From a virus, in UHGV virus genome UHGV-0164981: DNA of 43,926 bases, one strand, 5' to 3'. Shown here in pieces: positions 8,350 through 42,824 of the stretch. Numbering within the stretch: position 1 is the stretch's first letter; each line of letters begins with the position of its first letter. The position numbers and the translations under genes are program-made. The notes under the pieces are model-generated. The model was not told where the DNA came from. It saw nothing but the letters and a program-made list of their open reading frames with translations, and made no database searches.

Positions 8350-8381
8350 TGAATAGTAGCCTATTCTATCTTAGCGTGCAA
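8350..8381 (-). promoter_or_regulatory. class A promoter (TTGCAC-17 nt-TACTATTCA) reading leftwards
   Basis: Reverse complement reads TTACTTGCAC gctaagatagaataggc TACTATTCA; lies upstream of a small ORF starting at about 8332. Confidence 0.5.
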
Positions 8382-9448: not shown

Positions 9449-9480
9449 TGAATAGTATCCTATTATATTGGGGTGTGCAA
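9449..9480 (-). promoter_or_regulatory. class A promoter (TTGCAC-17 nt-TACTATTCA) reading leftwards
   Basis: Reverse complement reads TCTTGCAC accccaatataatagga TACTATTCACTTA, nearly identical to the element at 31631-31670. Confidence 0.55.
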
Positions 9481-13095: not shown

Positions 13096-13126
13096 GTCAA
13101 TTACTCCTTAGTCAGTTGATATGTGA

Positions 13127-13155
13127 ATAGTACCATATTAATTATTTTAGAAAAG
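13127..13155 (-). promoter_or_regulatory. class A-like promoter (TACTATTCA -10 region) for the XRE regulator gene
   Basis: Reverse complement reads ...TTAATATGG TACTATTCA CATATC followed by AAGGAG and ATG; -35 is weak. Confidence 0.45.
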
Positions 13156-13159
13156 CCCA

Positions 13160-13188
13160 TTGACATGTGAATAGTTCGCTATTATAGT
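13160..13188 (+). promoter_or_regulatory. class B promoter (TTGACA-17 nt-TATAGT) with GAATAG-N4-CTATT inverted repeat in the spacer
   Basis: TTGACA tgtgaatagttcgctat TATAGT; divergent from the XRE gene promoter. Confidence 0.6.
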
Positions 13189-30752: not shown

Positions 30753-31077
30753 GATTTCTACCTTCAAATATTGCTTCTAAGCCCATGATAATGTCTATCT
30801 CGAACAGGCTAAGCTGTTTTTGCGTAACATCGAGATAGGCTTTCAGGTCTTGCCACGTAACAGATTCTCTTGCAAACAATACTACAGCGTCCTCGCGCAC
30901 GTGTCGCGTAAACTTAATGTCGCAATACGTCTCAAAGGTGGATATAAAAAGGGGCGGGCATTCTGGCCCACCCCGTCGCGCTGCACGTTTTTTCTTATCG
31001 ATTACACCCATCGCGATAAGCGCCTGTTCGTGTCCGTCGGCGATAGAATCAAACTCTCTGATTTTATGCTTATCCAC
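30745..31077 (-). CDS. tail assembly chaperone, downstream (T-like) frame, probably expressed as a frameshift fusion
   Basis: ORF has no ATG start in good context; its frame stays open upstream to about 31128 and overlaps the last 6 codons of the upstream chaperone ORF in the -1 frame. Confidence 0.45.
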   Translation of the reverse strand: MDKHKIREFDSIADGHEQALIAMGVIDKKKRAARRGGPECPPLFISTFETYCDIKFTRHVREDAVVLFARESVTWQDLKAYLDVTQKQLSLFEIDIIMGLEAIFEGRNHG

Positions 31078-31634: not shown

Positions 31635-31663
31635 TTGCACACCCCAATATAATAGGGTACTAT
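31635..31663 (+). promoter_or_regulatory. class A promoter (TTGCAC-17 nt-TACTAT) driving the plus-strand cassette
   Basis: TTACTTGCAC accccaatataataggg TACTATTCACTTA; same element as at 9449-9480, 8350-8381 and 41133-41161. Confidence 0.6.
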
Positions 31664-31693
31664 TCACTTACACCAACAATGAAGGGGTTTAAA

Positions 31694-40317: not shown

Positions 40318-40581
40318 CTATTCCAGAATATTCCTCACGTAATCCTGCAACATGAACACTTTCAGTCTCAGTTGCCGTGTGCATTCGGCGTTCTGAACGT
40401 CGATGGCTAAATCCTCGTCAGCGTCGCTACTTGGCGGTGCCAGTTTGCACGGTGGTTGCATCATCGTCGTATCCGGGGATGGAATTGGCGTTTGCAACGG
40501 CGCGGGACTTGAGCAGGACGCGAGCATCATCGAAAGTGCACACGCTGCGACCAGGCGTTTTAATGTACTTAACGACTTCAC
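40318..40581 (-). CDS. o-spanin (Rz1-like outer-membrane lipoprotein)
   Basis: 87 aa; signal peptide with lipobox (LAACALSMMLASC), Pro-rich mature part (PAPLQTPIPSPD...PPCKLAPP); starts inside and in a different frame from the Rz-like gene. Confidence 0.55.
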   Translation of the reverse strand: MKSLSTLKRLVAACALSMMLASCSSPAPLQTPIPSPDTTMMQPPCKLAPPSSDADEDLAIDVQNAECTRQLRLKVFMLQDYVRNILE

Positions 40582-40813
40582 GTGTAATTACCTCTGATTT
40601 CGTCTTACCTTCGTTGTCAGCGGCTGCGGCCTTTGATTCATCCTGCTGCTGCCGTTGTGTTTTCTTCGCTAGCTCAGCCTGTGCTTTCTGCTGTTGCTGC
40701 GAAACGAGATTAGCACGGCCTTCACCCCAGCCGCTGCGGTATTGATAGATGCCGTGTGCGTAGGCCAGGACGACGAAACATGCTCCGGCTACGACAGTTG
40801 CTTTAAGATTCAT
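40427..40813 (-). CDS. i-spanin (Rz-like)
   Basis: 128 aa; N-terminal TM (VVAGACFVVLAYAHGIYQY) followed by Gln/Ala/Lys-rich coiled-coil-like periplasmic region; overlapped by the lipoprotein ORF. Confidence 0.55.
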   Translation of the reverse strand: MNLKATVVAGACFVVLAYAHGIYQYRSGWGEGRANLVSQQQQKAQAELAKKTQRQQQDESKAAAADNEGKTKSEVITREVVKYIKTPGRSVCTFDDARVLLKSRAVANANSIPGYDDDATTVQTGTAK

Positions 40814-40855: not shown

Positions 40856-41064
40856 GCGCTAGTCCTTATCATTTAAACATAGAAACGGCGTAATCTCAGT
40901 AAACCAGTTACTTTTTACACAAGCAATAGAGTATGGCCCTTCCGAACGCGTCAGCGTAACTACACTCAGGACTTACGTCCCGCTCCGTTACCTGCCCGCG
41001 CCGCGGTCGCTTGTTCATACTTCACAAGCTCAGGTGGAGCTTATCATATTTTCAGTGAAAAGTC

Positions 41065-41080
41065 AACTATTCGAATAGTT
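41065..41080. promoter_or_regulatory. perfect 16-bp palindrome AACTATTCGAATAGTT (candidate operator)
   Basis: Read directly; uses the same CTATTC/GAATAG half-sites as the spacer repeats of the class B promoters. Confidence 0.5.
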
Positions 41081-41132
41081 TATTCCAACGTTTACAATTG
41101 AGTGGAATAACTGGAATACGTAAATAAATAGT

Positions 41133-41161
41133 TTGCGCACACCAACATAATAGGGTACTAT
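41133..41161 (+). promoter_or_regulatory. class A promoter (TTGCGC-17 nt-TACTAT) driving the 41189 ORF
   Basis: GTTTGCGCAC accaacataataggg TACTATTCAG, then CAGGAG RBS and ATG. Confidence 0.55.
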
Positions 41162-41188
41162 TCAGTTAACTTAAACAGGAGATGAGAA

Positions 41189-41710
41189 ATGGTTACTACA
41201 GTAATTACTTTCCCTGCGTATGTAGGGGCAAAAATCTGCAGGGCTAAAAATGATGTGCGCTACTATTTGAACGCTTTTTACATAGACCCTGAAGGATTGA
41301 TAGTGTCTACGGACGGTCATAGATTGTTCTGCGACAATGTGAAGACCAATGTTGAGAAAGGGACTCTCATAGACATCAAAGGGAGAGAGCCTTCTAAATT
41401 TAACTACGCAGAGGTAAACCACGACAACGGCAGTGTAACTTTCTATGACGATAATCGTGCGCTTATATGCACGCTTCCGGTAGATGTTGTAGAAGGAAAC
41501 TTTCCTGACTGGAGACGCGTGGCGAACATCACACCGGGTGTTGTCGATAGTATAGGGTTCACTCTGCGCTATTTGGCAGACGCGTACAAGATTTCTAAGG
41601 CATACAAAAATGAAATTGCTCGTTTCGATTTCCAGGACCAAACCAGAGGATGTAAAATACTATTTTCAAACACGGCCTTTATGGTGTTAATGCCTGCGCG
41701 ATTTAAATAA
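41189..41710 (+). CDS. hypothetical protein encoded by a plus-strand moron inside the head module
   Basis: 173-aa ORF with AGGAG RBS, own promoter and terminator; no recognisable motifs, no TM segment or signal peptide. Confidence 0.55.
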   Translation: MVTTVITFPAYVGAKICRAKNDVRYYLNAFYIDPEGLIVSTDGHRLFCDNVKTNVEKGTLIDIKGREPSKFNYAEVNHDNGSVTFYDDNRALICTLPVDVVEGNFPDWRRVANITPGVVDSIGFTLRYLADAYKISKAYKNEIARFDFQDQTRGCKILFSNTAFMVLMPARFK

Positions 41711-41714
41711 AACT

Positions 41715-41737
41715 AAGGCCCCATAATGGGGCCTTTT
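41715..41737. terminator. bidirectional hairpin AGGCCCC-ATAAT-GGGGCCTTTT
   Basis: Between the convergent 41189-41710 (+) and 41739-42197 (-) genes. Confidence 0.6.
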
Positions 41738-41738
41738 A

Positions 41739-42197
41739 TCATTCTGTCTTAGAGACCTTCGCCGCTTTGCTTACGGCCTCTGCACCATCGGCATCAGTAA
41801 CTTTAACGAAGTATTCACCAGCCGCATTAACAGTCAGAGACAGAGCCTCTTCCGGGGCGTTCACCACTTCCTTCCCGTCTTTGTACCAGGTCAGTACATA
41901 CGGCGCTTTACCCGCCTTAACTTCGACGGTGATGGTGGCGCTACCGTCGACCAGCTCGGTGTCTTTCGGTTGCACAGAGAAATACACATCACCAGCATCT
42001 GCCAGATACGGAATCTCATAAAGCATACCAGCAGCAGAGAGTGCGATACCGGTCTTGTCCGCATACGGCATCTCGTCTACAGGTGTACCTAGTACACTTT
42101 CATCTTCAACGTAGGTTACGTTCTCACCAGAACCGGATACACGGGCGTACTGGACTACGCGACGCGACGGCACATCAGTTACTTTAAAAAAGCCCAT
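41739..42197 (-). CDS. Ig-like domain protein (possible capsid decoration)
   Basis: 152 aa; C-terminal APYVLTWYKDGKEV...AGEYFVKVTDADGAEA fits an Ig-like signature; second such protein in the virion module. Confidence 0.5.
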   Translation of the reverse strand: MGFFKVTDVPSRRVVQYARVSGSGENVTYVEDESVLGTPVDEMPYADKTGIALSAAGMLYEIPYLADAGDVYFSVQPKDTELVDGSATITVEVKAGKAPYVLTWYKDGKEVVNAPEEALSLTVNAAGEYFVKVTDADGAEAVSKAAKVSKTE

Positions 42198-42200
42198 AAA

Positions 42201-42824
42201 CTAAACCTCTTTCATTGAGTTAATCTTACGTAAGACGCCTTCGAAAAGGCGTGGGTCTATGCTATCGCAAAGACCTTTGTATTCATATGCTAATTCAATT
42301 TTTCTATGAAACCATGCTACGTGTGCCTCTTGAGCGGTTTCGTAAGCGCCTATTTGTTCAGATACGCCATCCACGGATACTTGAGCGATGAATCTTTTCT
42401 TTTGTTTATGGAAATGTACGCCGAGTGGGTGTTCGCCTCGAAGAGCGTCGTGGGCTGTTAGGAAAGTATTGAGGGATTTAGGGATGAAAACACAGTTAGA
42501 AGCATCGTAAACCTTATTTCCCGGGTTAAGTAAATCCTTATCTATCTGCCACCCAGGTACATAAAAATCATCAAACCAGACCTTGAAATTACTGAACACC
42601 AACCAATCGTCCGACACGCGGCAACCTATATAAGTTCTGTTTCTTTGCTGCCATTTCTTGTCGTAGCACCTCTTTAACATGTTCTTCCATACGGCGTAGG
42701 ACGCTATATGCACCCCTCCGCAACTTATTGGTGAAACATCGTTAATACCCACACCAAAAACAATTCCCATATTAAACCCTATAAGAAAACCCCATGAAGA
42801 TTGGTCGATGCCAGAGATAGGCAT
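42201..42824 (-). CDS. putative homing endonuclease-like DNA-binding protein with AP2-type domain
   Basis: 207 aa; C-terminal KKRFIAQVSVDGVSEQIGAYETAQEAHVAW resembles an AP2 DNA-binding domain; N-terminal half with conserved aromatic/Cys pattern; free-standing between two structural genes. Confidence 0.4.
   Translation of the reverse strand: MPISGIDQSSWGFLIGFNMGIVFGVGINDVSPISCGGVHIASYAVWKNMLKRCYDKKWQQRNRTYIGCRVSDDWLVFSNFKVWFDDFYVPGWQIDKDLLNPGNKVYDASNCVFIPKSLNTFLTAHDALRGEHPLGVHFHKQKKRFIAQVSVDGVSEQIGAYETAQEAHVAWFHRKIELAYEYKGLCDSIDPRLFEGVLRKINSMKEV

What the first reader, a model, noticed from the sequence alone, without database searches (positions are those of the whole stretch)
41131..41745. 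Second plus-strand moron in the head module: 173-aa protein of unknown function with its own promoter and terminator
A single plus-strand ORF (41189-41710) sits among minus-strand head genes, with a class A promoter 27 nt upstream of a CAGGAG RBS and a bidirectional terminator immediately after its stop. The protein has no TM segment, no signal peptide and no motif I can place in a known family. Independently transcribed ORFs in late operons are the classic location of host-interaction, exclusion or anti-defence genes.
Basis: partly seen in the sequence, partly recalled or inferred. Interest (0 to 1): 0.6.

Follow-up and report, generated by a model that had tools for sequence, protein, structure and literature searches.

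The report
Phage pocket-only mini sliding clamp
The "unknown" 173-aa gene is a cut-down copy of the bacterial DNA sliding clamp that keeps almost only the clamp's protein-docking pocket. It sits in a swappable, self-transcribed gene slot of a Kagunavirus phage, so it most likely binds host replication or repair proteins away from the real clamp.

Summary
There is a lone plus-strand ORF (41189-41710) among minus-strand head genes. It has a conserved sigma-70-type promoter (one of six copies in the window), a CAGGAG RBS and a bidirectional terminator.

It comprises domain II plus the C-terminal half of domain III. Domain I and the dimer-interface half of domain III are missing. It keeps 15 of the 18 residues of the clamp-binding-motif pocket, and family conservation is concentrated on that pocket (p~1e-9).

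The slot is a swap cassette. Relatives with the same promoter and terminator carry a 67-aa, 94-aa or 52-aa ORF, an endonuclease VII, an adenine methyltransferase, or nothing. Phage Bas73 has no mini-clamp anywhere in its genome.

Best explanation (inferred, not shown): a soluble pocket module that binds clamp-binding-motif proteins off the ring, acting as a competitor or decoy. The main rival is an adaptor role in phage replication. The short-clamp family is large and I found no experimental study of it.

The parts
41133..41164 (+). Conserved sigma-70-type promoter motif: -35 TTGCGC at 41133-41138, a 17-nt spacer containing CATAATAGGG, -10 TACTAT at 41156-41161, then TCA.
   Evidence: The 19-mer occurs 6 times in the window against 0 expected. 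Aligned copies all precede an RBS and start codon. The same motif precedes other cargo in Bas73, SETP13 and S102. Promoter activity was not tested.
41176..41181 (+). Ribosome-binding site CAGGAG, 7 nt upstream of the ATG.
   Evidence: Read directly from the sequence. Annotated as an RBS in Schulenburg. The 5' UTR AACTTAAACAG(G/A)AG is conserved even in the distant Salmonella phage SaI_NFG_5577.
41189..41710 (+). CDS for a 173-aa (19.6 kDa, pI 8.3) truncated beta-sliding-clamp homologue, the 'mini-clamp'. Residues 1-116 correspond to E. coli beta 129-252 (domain II, lacking helix ~197-209). Residues 117-173 correspond to beta ~312-366 (C-terminal half of domain III).
41715..41735 (.). Bidirectional intrinsic terminator hairpin AAGGCCCCATAATGGGGCCTT. 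It closes the mini-clamp unit on the + strand and the upstream head-gene block (Hoc-like gene) on the - strand.
   Evidence: 9 pairs, 6 GC, on both strands. Annotated on both strands in Schulenburg. A hairpin is retained behind every alternative cargo and behind the mini-clamp genes of Dhillonvirus and Skatevirus.

Best explanation
The ORF encodes a pocket-only derivative of the bacterial beta sliding clamp (DnaN).

Shown:
- It is homologous to DnaN.
- Its predicted fold superposes on beta over 160 of 173 residues.
- It consists of domain II (minus one channel-lining helix) fused to the C-terminal half of domain III.
- Domain I and residues ~254-310 are absent. The latter segment carries the I272/L273 dimer interface.
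- 15 of the 18 residues that form the canonical clamp-binding-motif (CBM) pocket of E. coli beta are identical. Across the family, conservation is concentrated on those residues.

Inferred from sequence:
- It is transcribed on its own from a conserved host-type promoter. The same promoter type also precedes a Cro-like regulator gene and operons of small early-type genes, so expression is probably early.
- Transcription ends at a bidirectional terminator.
- It is an accessory cassette that related phages can lack or replace.

Inferred mechanism:
- Because it cannot form the beta2 ring in the canonical way but keeps the docking pocket, it binds QL[SD]LF-type motifs of clamp clients in solution. 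It thereby competes with the DNA-loaded host clamp as a hub decoy.
- Single-motif, low-avidity clients should be hit first: Hda, translesion polymerases, MutS/MutL and RecB. This would re-tune host replication control and repair in the phage's favour.
- The phage's own family-A polymerase replisome, in which I found no CBM, would be unaffected.
For: Homology and fold:
- PHROG 3007 E=1e-35, and PF02767 (DnaN central domain) below threshold.
- Profile of 46 family members vs PDB: E=3e-26 to E. coli beta, domain II, plus a second segment matching beta 313-366.
- AF2 pLDDT 94.9, pTM 0.90.
- Foldseek PDB top 50 hits are all beta clamps.

Pocket:
- I used the pocket definition from the review PMC11139829.
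- 15 of 18 residues are identical to E. coli beta.
- 12 of the 19 family columns with at least 90% conservation are pocket residues (Fisher p=7e-10).
- This was repeated on 138 independent representatives, each from a different 50%-identity cluster, found without word seeding. Pocket mean conservation was 0.81 against 0.36 elsewhere (Mann-Whitney p=6e-9).

Accessory status:
- Cassette exchange runs exactly from the ATG to the stop codon.
- There are at least six alternative slot states.
- Bas73 has no homologue genome-wide.
- Of 181 records that share the slot's left flank, only 23 carry this allele by blastn, and 27 records hold a homologue of at least 60% aa identity by tblastn.

Other:
- No CBM-like motif in the phage PolA.
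- Precedent that upsetting the clamp-client balance selectively disturbs Hda/RIDA: MuC (PMC12867686).
- RecB uses a CBM in the same pocket, and losing that contact impairs RecBCD DNA degradation (10.1101/2025.08.20.671105).
Against: - No binding, expression or phenotype data exist; the mechanism is inference.
- Pocket residues also lie at the domain II/III junction, so part of their conservation could be structural.
- Three pocket positions differ from E. coli beta: N320T, V344T and M364A.
- Homologues occur in Skatevirus genomes that encode no DNA polymerase. Those phages need host Pol III, and indiscriminate sequestration of Pol III would hurt them.
- In 5-8 of 29 lineages the gene lies within 8 genes of primase-helicase, PolA, exonuclease or SSB genes. 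This fits a replication role at least as well as a decoy role.
- Oligomeric state is unknown. The model is a monomer prediction only.
Confidence: 0.45

Rival explanations
1. Replication adaptor or non-ring processivity factor. The mini-clamp uses its pocket to hold a CBM-bearing polymerase or other replisome protein (host Pol III alpha/epsilon, the clamp loader delta subunit, or a phage protein). It tethers that protein to phage DNA or to the phage helicase-primase, as HSV UL42 or PhiKZ Rhc do for their own polymerases without forming a ring.
For: - Distant homologues sit in or next to replication modules: Prim-Pol/DUF5906 helicase-primase, PolA, DUF2800 exonuclease and Enc34-type SSB.
- Homologues occur in Skatevirus, which lacks its own polymerase and must use host Pol III.
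- The protein is mildly basic (pI 8.3, against 5.25 for beta).
- There is a precedent for a single clamp-derived subunit boosting a phage polymerase (PMC13648687).
Against: - The gene is dispensable and replaceable in near-identical Kagunavirus genomes.
- No family-wide conserved surface was found other than the pocket.
- No CBM-like motif was found in the phage PolA, and only weak, unconserved candidates in the helicases.
- Two of the channel-lining helices are deleted.
Confidence: 0.3
2. Genuine ring-forming sliding clamp built from more, smaller subunits. For example, four protomers of three half-domains would give the 12 half-domains of a beta2 ring. Such a ring would be loaded on DNA and act as a classical processivity clamp. 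This is how current GenBank annotations ('DNA polymerase III sliding clamp') read it.
For: - Clamp fold.
- The arithmetic of half-domains works.
- From my own memory, not retrieved here: E. coli beta*, a C-terminal two-thirds form of beta, was reported to be active as an oligomer (Skaliter et al. 1996).
Against: - Domain I and beta residues 254-310, including the I272/L273 interface, are absent (interface per PMC11139829).
- The domain II helix equivalent to beta ~197-209 is deleted.
- Curated DnaN models are far below threshold: TIGR00663 18.5 vs 137.65 bits, PF02767 17.5 vs 27.
- The phage encodes no clamp loader (annotation).
- The gene is dispensable.
Confidence: 0.07
3. RusA-like Holliday junction resolvase, as PHROG 3007 and several recent GenBank records label it.
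For: Only the family label of phrog_3007 and phrog_12598, copied into records such as PQ423993 and Bas81.
Against: - No RusA or other resolvase hit in Pfam or NCBIfam.
- Sequence and fold are unambiguously DnaN-like.
- Kagunavirus genomes have separately annotated resolvases: a VRR-NUC endonuclease in Schulenburg, and a Holliday junction resolvase plus endonuclease VII in Bas73.
Confidence: 0.01

Closest known systems
E. coli beta sliding clamp DnaN (e.g. PDB 1MMI, 2POL, 1JQJ)
   Same: - Homologous sequence (29% identity over 156 aligned residues).
- Near-identical CBM pocket: TDGHRL, FPDxRRV, Y323 and a C-terminal MPxR.
- The protein ends where beta ends, extended by a single residue (window MPARFK vs beta MPMRL); Dhillonvirus and Skatevirus homologues end exactly ...MPMRL.
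   Different: - 173 aa instead of 366 aa.
- Lacks domain I, the first half of domain III (the dimer interface) and one inner helix of domain II.
- Basic rather than acidic.
- Phage-encoded, dispensable, and transcribed as a stand-alone cassette.
E. coli beta* (UV-induced internal-start product of dnaN, the C-terminal two-thirds of beta). Cited from my own memory; I could not retrieve it in the library.
   Same: It starts at about the same place, the beginning of domain II, and keeps the pocket.
   Different: Beta* keeps all of domain III and was reported to oligomerise and to stimulate Pol III. The phage protein has a further ~57-residue deletion that removes the interface.
Non-ring clamp-fold polymerase accessory subunits: HSV-1 UL42, HCMV UL44 and PhiKZ Rhc (PMC13648687)
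   Same: These are clamp-derived proteins encoded by viruses that act without closing a ring.
   Different: They bind their own viral polymerase through virus-specific surfaces. The mini-clamp instead preserves the host clamp's generic client pocket, and no polymerase partner is evident.
Phage proteins that target the host clamp hub from the other side: Mu MuC (two CBMs, PMC12867686), Twort gp168 (PDB 7EVP). Also N4 gp8, which binds the clamp loader delta subunit (cited from memory).
   Same: They manipulate the same interaction network, the clamp pocket versus its CBM clients.
   Different: Those proteins bind the host clamp or its loader. The mini-clamp imitates the clamp itself and would bind the clients. 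There is no sequence relationship.
Lambdoid-type morons and accessory-gene hot spots
   Same: Own promoter, own terminator, orientation opposite to the surrounding late operon, and presence/absence or replacement polymorphism among close relatives.
   Different: The occupant is ancient in this position. Homologues of 40-43% identity sit in the same place in other genera. The phage is virulent-type rather than a prophage expressing lysogenic conversion genes.

Membership tests
Beta sliding clamp DnaN (TIGR00663; Pfam PF00712/PF02767/PF02768) | Sequence and fold homology to DnaN | tested here: met
Beta sliding clamp DnaN (TIGR00663; Pfam PF00712/PF02767/PF02768) | Three-domain architecture of ~366 aa that passes the curated model cut-offs | tested here: not met
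   The protein is 173 aa. TIGR00663 scores 18.5 bits against a cut-off of 137.65. PF02767 scores 17.5 against 27, and there is no PF00712 or PF02768 hit. The alignment covers only beta 129-253 and ~312-366.
Beta sliding clamp DnaN (TIGR00663; Pfam PF00712/PF02767/PF02768) | Head-to-tail dimer interface (domain I against the domain III segment carrying I272/L273) | tested here: not met
   Both partners of the interface are absent from the sequence. The interface residues are taken from PMC11139829.
Beta sliding clamp DnaN (TIGR00663; Pfam PF00712/PF02767/PF02768) | Canonical clamp-binding-motif pocket (subsites I and II) | tested here: met
   15 of 18 residues are identical to E. coli beta. Family conservation is concentrated on the pocket. 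Met at the sequence level only; no ligand binding was measured.
Beta sliding clamp DnaN (TIGR00663; Pfam PF00712/PF02767/PF02768) | Closed ring that encircles DNA and is loaded by a clamp loader | not testable with these tools
   Only a monomer could be modelled. It needs SEC-MALS or cryo-EM and loading assays.
RusA-like Holliday junction resolvase (label of PHROG 3007) | RusA fold or family signature | tested here: not met
   No RusA or resolvase hit in Pfam or NCBIfam. The fold is a DNA clamp. The label is an annotation error.
Moron / exchangeable accessory cassette | Own promoter and own terminator flanking a single ORF, oriented against the surrounding late operon | tested here: met
   The same architecture surrounds the homologues in Dhillonvirus and a Salmonella Guernseyvirinae-like phage. 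Met at the sequence level.
Moron / exchangeable accessory cassette | Presence/absence or replacement among otherwise collinear close relatives | tested here: met
   Homology breaks exactly at the ATG and at the stop codon against Bas73. Alternative cargo: 67-aa, 94-aa and 52-aa ORFs, endonuclease VII, adenine methyltransferase, or empty.
Moron / exchangeable accessory cassette | Independent transcription during infection | not testable with these tools
   Needs RNA-seq or 5'-end mapping.
Non-ring clamp-fold processivity factor (UL42 / Rhc type) | Direct binding to a cognate polymerase and to duplex DNA | not testable with these tools
   Only indirect hints are available: pI 8.3 and no CBM in the phage PolA.

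The most novel reading that the evidence does not exclude
The mini-clamp is a hub mimic. It is a soluble copy of the host clamp's docking pocket that soaks up clamp-binding motifs. Its selected target is a host nuclease or defence factor that needs the clamp. The obvious candidate is RecB, whose QVEMEF motif binds this pocket and is needed for full RecBCD DNA degradation. A CBM-bearing toxin is another possibility. That would make it an anti-defence protein of a new kind, working by imitating the replisome hub rather than by binding the hub. It would also assign a function to a very large unstudied family of short phage 'Pol III beta' genes.
Probability: 0.2. Interest if true: 0.8.

Novelty: new variant of a known kind. 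Interest (0 to 1): 0.55.

Why it matters
Short 'DNA polymerase III beta' genes are scattered through many phage genomes, and annotators either take them at face value as sliding clamps or mislabel them as RusA. A profile search gave 30,049 cluster representatives at E<=1e-3, a count that also takes in bacterial full-length dnaN genes. The best 150 were all 141-302 aa.

This analysis shows that the Kagunavirus member cannot be a conventional clamp. What selection preserves is the client-docking pocket. If the protein really binds clamp-binding motifs in solution, phages would have a simple way to rewire the whole clamp interaction network: replication initiation control, mismatch repair, translesion synthesis and RecBCD.

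Such a protein could also serve as a small, monomeric tool for probing or blocking clamp clients. The idea is directly testable with peptides and pocket mutants.

The locus also documents a cleanly delimited cassette-exchange slot in Guernseyvirinae, which could be used to insert payloads into phages.

Tried and rejected
1. Structural virion protein: rejected. The protein is a clamp homologue, and it is absent from Bas73.

2. RusA resolvase label: rejected.

3. Defence-system relative: no PADLOC hit.

4. Phage-encoded ligand:
- PolA has no Q-x-x-[LIVM]-[F..] motif, and the helicases and exonuclease have only weak ones.
- The only perfect QLSLF in the six-frame proteome lies in the tail-assembly-chaperone T-part ORF. 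One hit is about what chance predicts.

5. Conserved neighbour or partner gene:
- I analysed the neighbourhoods of 72 IMG/VR loci in 29 lineages.
- This found replication genes and a small acidic protein next to the mini-clamp gene in 6 lineages. None has a homologue in this window.

6. Strict linkage to a phage PolA: rejected. Skatevirus VSt472 has a homologue but no polymerase.

7. Rfam and tRNA scans of the window and of the upstream conserved element found nothing.

8. The afdb50 fold library was unavailable.

9. The genome-contig scan was uninformative. Its single pattern mostly retrieved what appear to be the hosts' own dnaN genes in Aeromonas: three matches lie within ~2.4 kb of the chromosome start, and I did not check the rest.

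10. Eight literature searches found no functional study of truncated phage clamps.

11. I did not use the second structure-prediction job. The tool cannot model oligomers or peptide complexes and returns no coordinates.

Full report
**What the window is.** The window is a complete or nearly complete genome of a Kagunavirus (Guernseyvirinae), an E. coli siphophage. It is 97.5% identical to phage Schulenburg over the 1.5 kb around the finding. The annotated Schulenburg and Bas73 genomes give the gene map.

**Observation.**
- ORF 41189-41710 (+), 173 aa, is the only plus-strand gene between the minus-strand spanins (40427-40813) and the Hoc-like decoration gene (41739-42197).
- A CAGGAG RBS lies 7 nt before the ATG.
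- Upstream are -35 TTGCGC (41133-41138), a 17-nt spacer and -10 TACTAT (41156-41161).
- The generic promoter scan missed this site. However, the core 19-mer is present six times in the window against none expected. Every copy sits 25-35 nt ahead of an RBS and start codon.
- The genes behind the other copies are a Cro-like HTH regulator, two operons of small ORFs, and an Imm-like/phosphoesterase operon embedded in the tail module (compare).
- I therefore infer a class of host-RNAP, probably early, promoters. Timing was not measured.
- The hairpin at 41715-41735 scores as a terminator on both strands.

**Identity of the protein.**
- PHROG 3007 matches at E=1e-35. That family is mislabelled 'RusA-like'. 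PHROG 947, a 'processivity factor' family, matches at 5e-9.
- PF02767 (DnaN central domain) and TIGR00663 match below threshold.
- A single-sequence search of PDB hits E. coli beta at 1e-4.
- A profile of 46 homologues hits E. coli beta at E=3e-26. Family positions 10-148 align to beta 138-281, and positions 120-177 align again to beta 313-366.
- AlphaFold2 gives a very confident model: pLDDT 94.9, pTM 0.90.
- Foldseek's best 50 PDB matches are all beta clamps.
- GenBank relatives already call the gene 'DNA polymerase III sliding clamp' or 'beta clamp domain-containing protein'. One genome paper takes that at face value (PMC9825357).

**What is kept and what is lost.** The alignment and predicted secondary structure give this layout.
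- Residues 1-116 are domain II of beta (129-252). The second channel-lining helix (beta ~197-209) is replaced by a short loop.
- Residues 117-173 are the last alpha-beta-beta-beta unit of domain III (beta ~312-366).
- The protein ends ...MPARFK, one residue beyond where beta's ...MPMRL ends. Dhillonvirus and Skatevirus homologues end exactly ...MPMRL.
- Domain I and beta 254-310 are missing. The review PMC11139829 places the I272/L273 dimer interface in the latter segment.
- The protein therefore cannot make the canonical head-to-tail beta2 ring, and the phage has no clamp loader.

**The pocket.** The same review lists the 18 residues of the clamp-binding-motif pocket.
- Fifteen are identical in the window protein: R152, L155, T172, G174, H175, R176, L177, P242, R246, V247, Y323, V360, M362, P363 and R365.
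- Three differ: N320T, V344T and M364A.
- Overall identity to beta is only 29%.
- In the 46-sequence family alignment, 12 of the 19 columns with at least 90% conservation are pocket residues, and the other seven are mostly their immediate neighbours (Fisher p=7e-10).
- That homologue set was collected through shared 5-mers, which could inflate motif conservation. I therefore repeated the test on 138 further representatives, each from a different 50%-identity cluster, returned by an exhaustive HMMER scan. Pocket columns averaged 0.81 conservation against 0.36 for the rest (p=6e-9).
- So selection in this family acts chiefly on the docking pocket.
- I found no second family-wide conserved surface.

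**Genomic behaviour.**
- Against Bas73, homology runs through the promoter, RBS and ATG. It stops there and resumes at the stop codon and terminator. In between, Bas73 has an unrelated 67-aa acidic ORF.
- IMG/VR contigs with the identical promoter/RBS carry the mini-clamp, the 67-aa ORF, a 94-aa ORF (phrog_1273, unknown function) or a 52-aa ORF.
- Among Jerseyviruses, SETP13 carries an endonuclease VII, S102 an adenine methyltransferase, and FSL SP-101 nothing.
- Bas73 has no mini-clamp anywhere in its genome.
- Of 181 phage records that share the slot's left flank, 23 carry this allele by blastn. By tblastn, 27 records hold a homologue of at least 60% aa identity.
- The gene is nevertheless not a recent arrival. 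A 43%-identical homologue sits in the same slot of Salmonella phage SaI_NFG_5577. A 40%-identical one sits reversed between head genes in Dhillonvirus TheodorHerzl. Each has its own promoter-like sequence and hairpin.

**The wider family.**
- tblastn finds homologues in 235 phage records. Hosts include Salmonella, Escherichia, Klebsiella, Vibrio, Proteus, Acinetobacter and Burkholderia.
- The BFVD viral structure library contains many 163-266-aa phage 'Pol III beta' proteins with the same truncated fold, at TM 0.8-0.87.
- The exhaustive profile search returned 30,049 cluster representatives at E<=1e-3, which certainly includes bacterial full-length dnaN genes. The best 150 are all 141-302 aa.
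- In IMG/VR, 71 of 72 called genes are short.
- Contexts vary. Some genes lie in early or replication operons with Prim-Pol/DUF5906 helicase-primase, PolA, DUF2800 exonuclease and SSB. Others lie in short reverse-oriented operons among structural genes.
- Skatevirus VSt472 has a homologue with an intact pocket but no DNA polymerase gene.

**Mechanism.**
- The steps shown are homology, truncation, pocket retention and cassette behaviour. Everything beyond that is inference.
- The simplest reading is that a clamp fragment that cannot encircle DNA, but keeps the host clamp's generic docking site almost unchanged, binds the same ligands, namely clamp-binding motifs. A phage-specific partner would be expected to let the pocket drift, and it has not.
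- I favour a soluble competitor or decoy (0.45) for three reasons. The gene is dispensable and swappable. It shares its slot with other DNA-metabolism or anti-restriction-type cargo. The Kagunavirus replisome (PolA, helicase-primase, gp2.5-like SSB) shows no CBM.
- Work on MuC shows that disturbing the clamp-client balance hits Hda-dependent RIDA before elongation. Work on RecB shows that RecBCD's DNA degradation depends on a CBM contact with this very pocket. Both give concrete, testable targets.
- The main rival (0.3) is an adaptor or non-ring processivity role in replication. It is supported by the replication-module contexts and by the polymerase-less Skatevirus. PhiKZ Rhc is a precedent.
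- A true multi-subunit ring (0.07) and the RusA label (0.01) are poorly supported.

**Novelty and score.**
- The gene itself is already in databases and is recognised as clamp-like. What appears new is the recognition that it is a pocket-only derivative with pocket-focused selection, and that it occupies a defined exchange slot.
- I found no experimental or analytical paper on such proteins.
- I rate it a new variant of a known kind, with interest 0.55.

**Side observation.**
- The 259 nt to the left of the slot (40860-41118) are 96-97% identical between this Kagunavirus and Jerseyviruses. The flanking scaffold, spanin and Hoc-like genes are only 75-85% identical.
- The 36-aa ORF annotated there shows no third-position bias and carries an indel, so it is probably not coding.
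- On the head-gene (minus) strand the element contains two palindromes, a TTGACT-17-TAAGCT promoter-like site, a GC-rich leader of about 190 nt and a strong terminator just before the spanin RBS.
- This resembles a lambda pR'-6S-tR' late control region. It deserves its own study.

Noticed in passing
window 40860-41118 (functional strand probably minus): Ultraconserved 259-nt non-coding element between the spanin start and the slot promoter.
- It is 96-97% identical to Jerseyvirus phages, whereas the flanking scaffold, spanin and Hoc-like genes are 75-85% identical.
- It is present in 181 phage records, 163 of them at 95% identity or more.
- On the minus strand it has the inverted repeat TTATTCCA..TGGAATAA, the 16-bp palindrome AACTATTCGAATAGTT, a TTGACT-17-TAAGCT promoter-like site, a GC-rich leader of about 190 nt, and a terminator hairpin at 40857-40838 just before the spanin RBS.
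- It is possibly a late-operon control region of the lambda pR'/6S/tR' type, or an sRNA.
- Fold z-scores are -2.5 and -2.3. There are a few compensatory pairs, each seen in one sequence only. There is no Rfam match.
   Followed up: partly
window 40906-41016 (-): The 36-aa 'hypothetical protein' annotated at this position in Schulenburg and Bas73 is probably not a gene. Substitutions among 14 distinct sequences fall 5/11/7 on codon positions 1/2/3, and one alignment column carries an indel.
   Followed up: partly
window 8350-8368(-), 9449-9467(-), 13124-13142(-), 13168-13186(-), 31648-31666(+), 41146-41164(+): There are six copies of one promoter motif, cTTGCAcaccccaatATAATAGGgTACTATTCAcTTA, whose unusually conserved spacer contains a second TATAAT. 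They precede a Cro-like regulator (two copies in tandem), two operons of small ORFs, an Imm-like/phosphoesterase operon reversed inside the tail module, and the mini-clamp. The conserved spacer suggests that a factor besides sigma-70 recognises it.
   Followed up: partly
same slot in related phages: L002/L014, L008/L012, L007, L104, L106, L105: The slot is a cassette-exchange hot spot with at least seven states: mini-clamp, a 67-aa acidic ORF, a 94-aa ORF (phrog_1273), a 52-aa ORF, endonuclease VII (SETP13), adenine methyltransferase (S102) and empty (FSL SP-101). Most cassettes share the promoter/RBS on the left and a GC hairpin on the right; the hairpin varies slightly in sequence, and behind the L007 cargo it has a different sequence.
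   Followed up: yes
homologues P0043-P0207 (not in the window): Long-form mini-clamps (about 190-230 aa) extend past the MPxR end with a tail. The tail carries a recurrent [LAV]-P-x-W motif 8-15 residues downstream. Very often the protein ends in -AA, which resembles an ssrA/ClpX-type C-terminal degron. The window protein lacks this tail.
   Followed up: no
window ~30802-30816 (-), in the ORF just upstream of the tape measure gene: A perfect consensus clamp-binding motif, QLSLF, occurs in the tail-assembly-chaperone T-part ORF (...DVTQKQLSLFEIDII...). It is the only such hit in the six-frame proteome, where about one is expected by chance.
   Followed up: partly
window 42201-42824 (-): A 207-aa HNH-type homing endonuclease gene is inserted between the head-morphogenesis gene and the Hoc-like gene. 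The insertion is also present in Schulenburg but absent from Bas73 and Ivi, where the two head genes abut.
   Followed up: no
IMG/VR loci L055, L062, L084, L094, L100-L103: In six lineages of environmental phage contigs, a small acidic protein of about 90-135 aa (motif YNGWTNYATWRVNLEIFDG...AFLSDVNW.EIA) lies immediately next to the mini-clamp gene. It could be a partner. It has no homologue in this window.
   Followed up: partly
L010 and L013 (IMG/VR Kagunavirus contigs): Otherwise near-identical mini-clamp alleles carry substitutions inside the invariant TDGHR pocket motif: D42N in L010 and G43S in L013. These may be sequencing errors or natural pocket variants.
   Followed up: no
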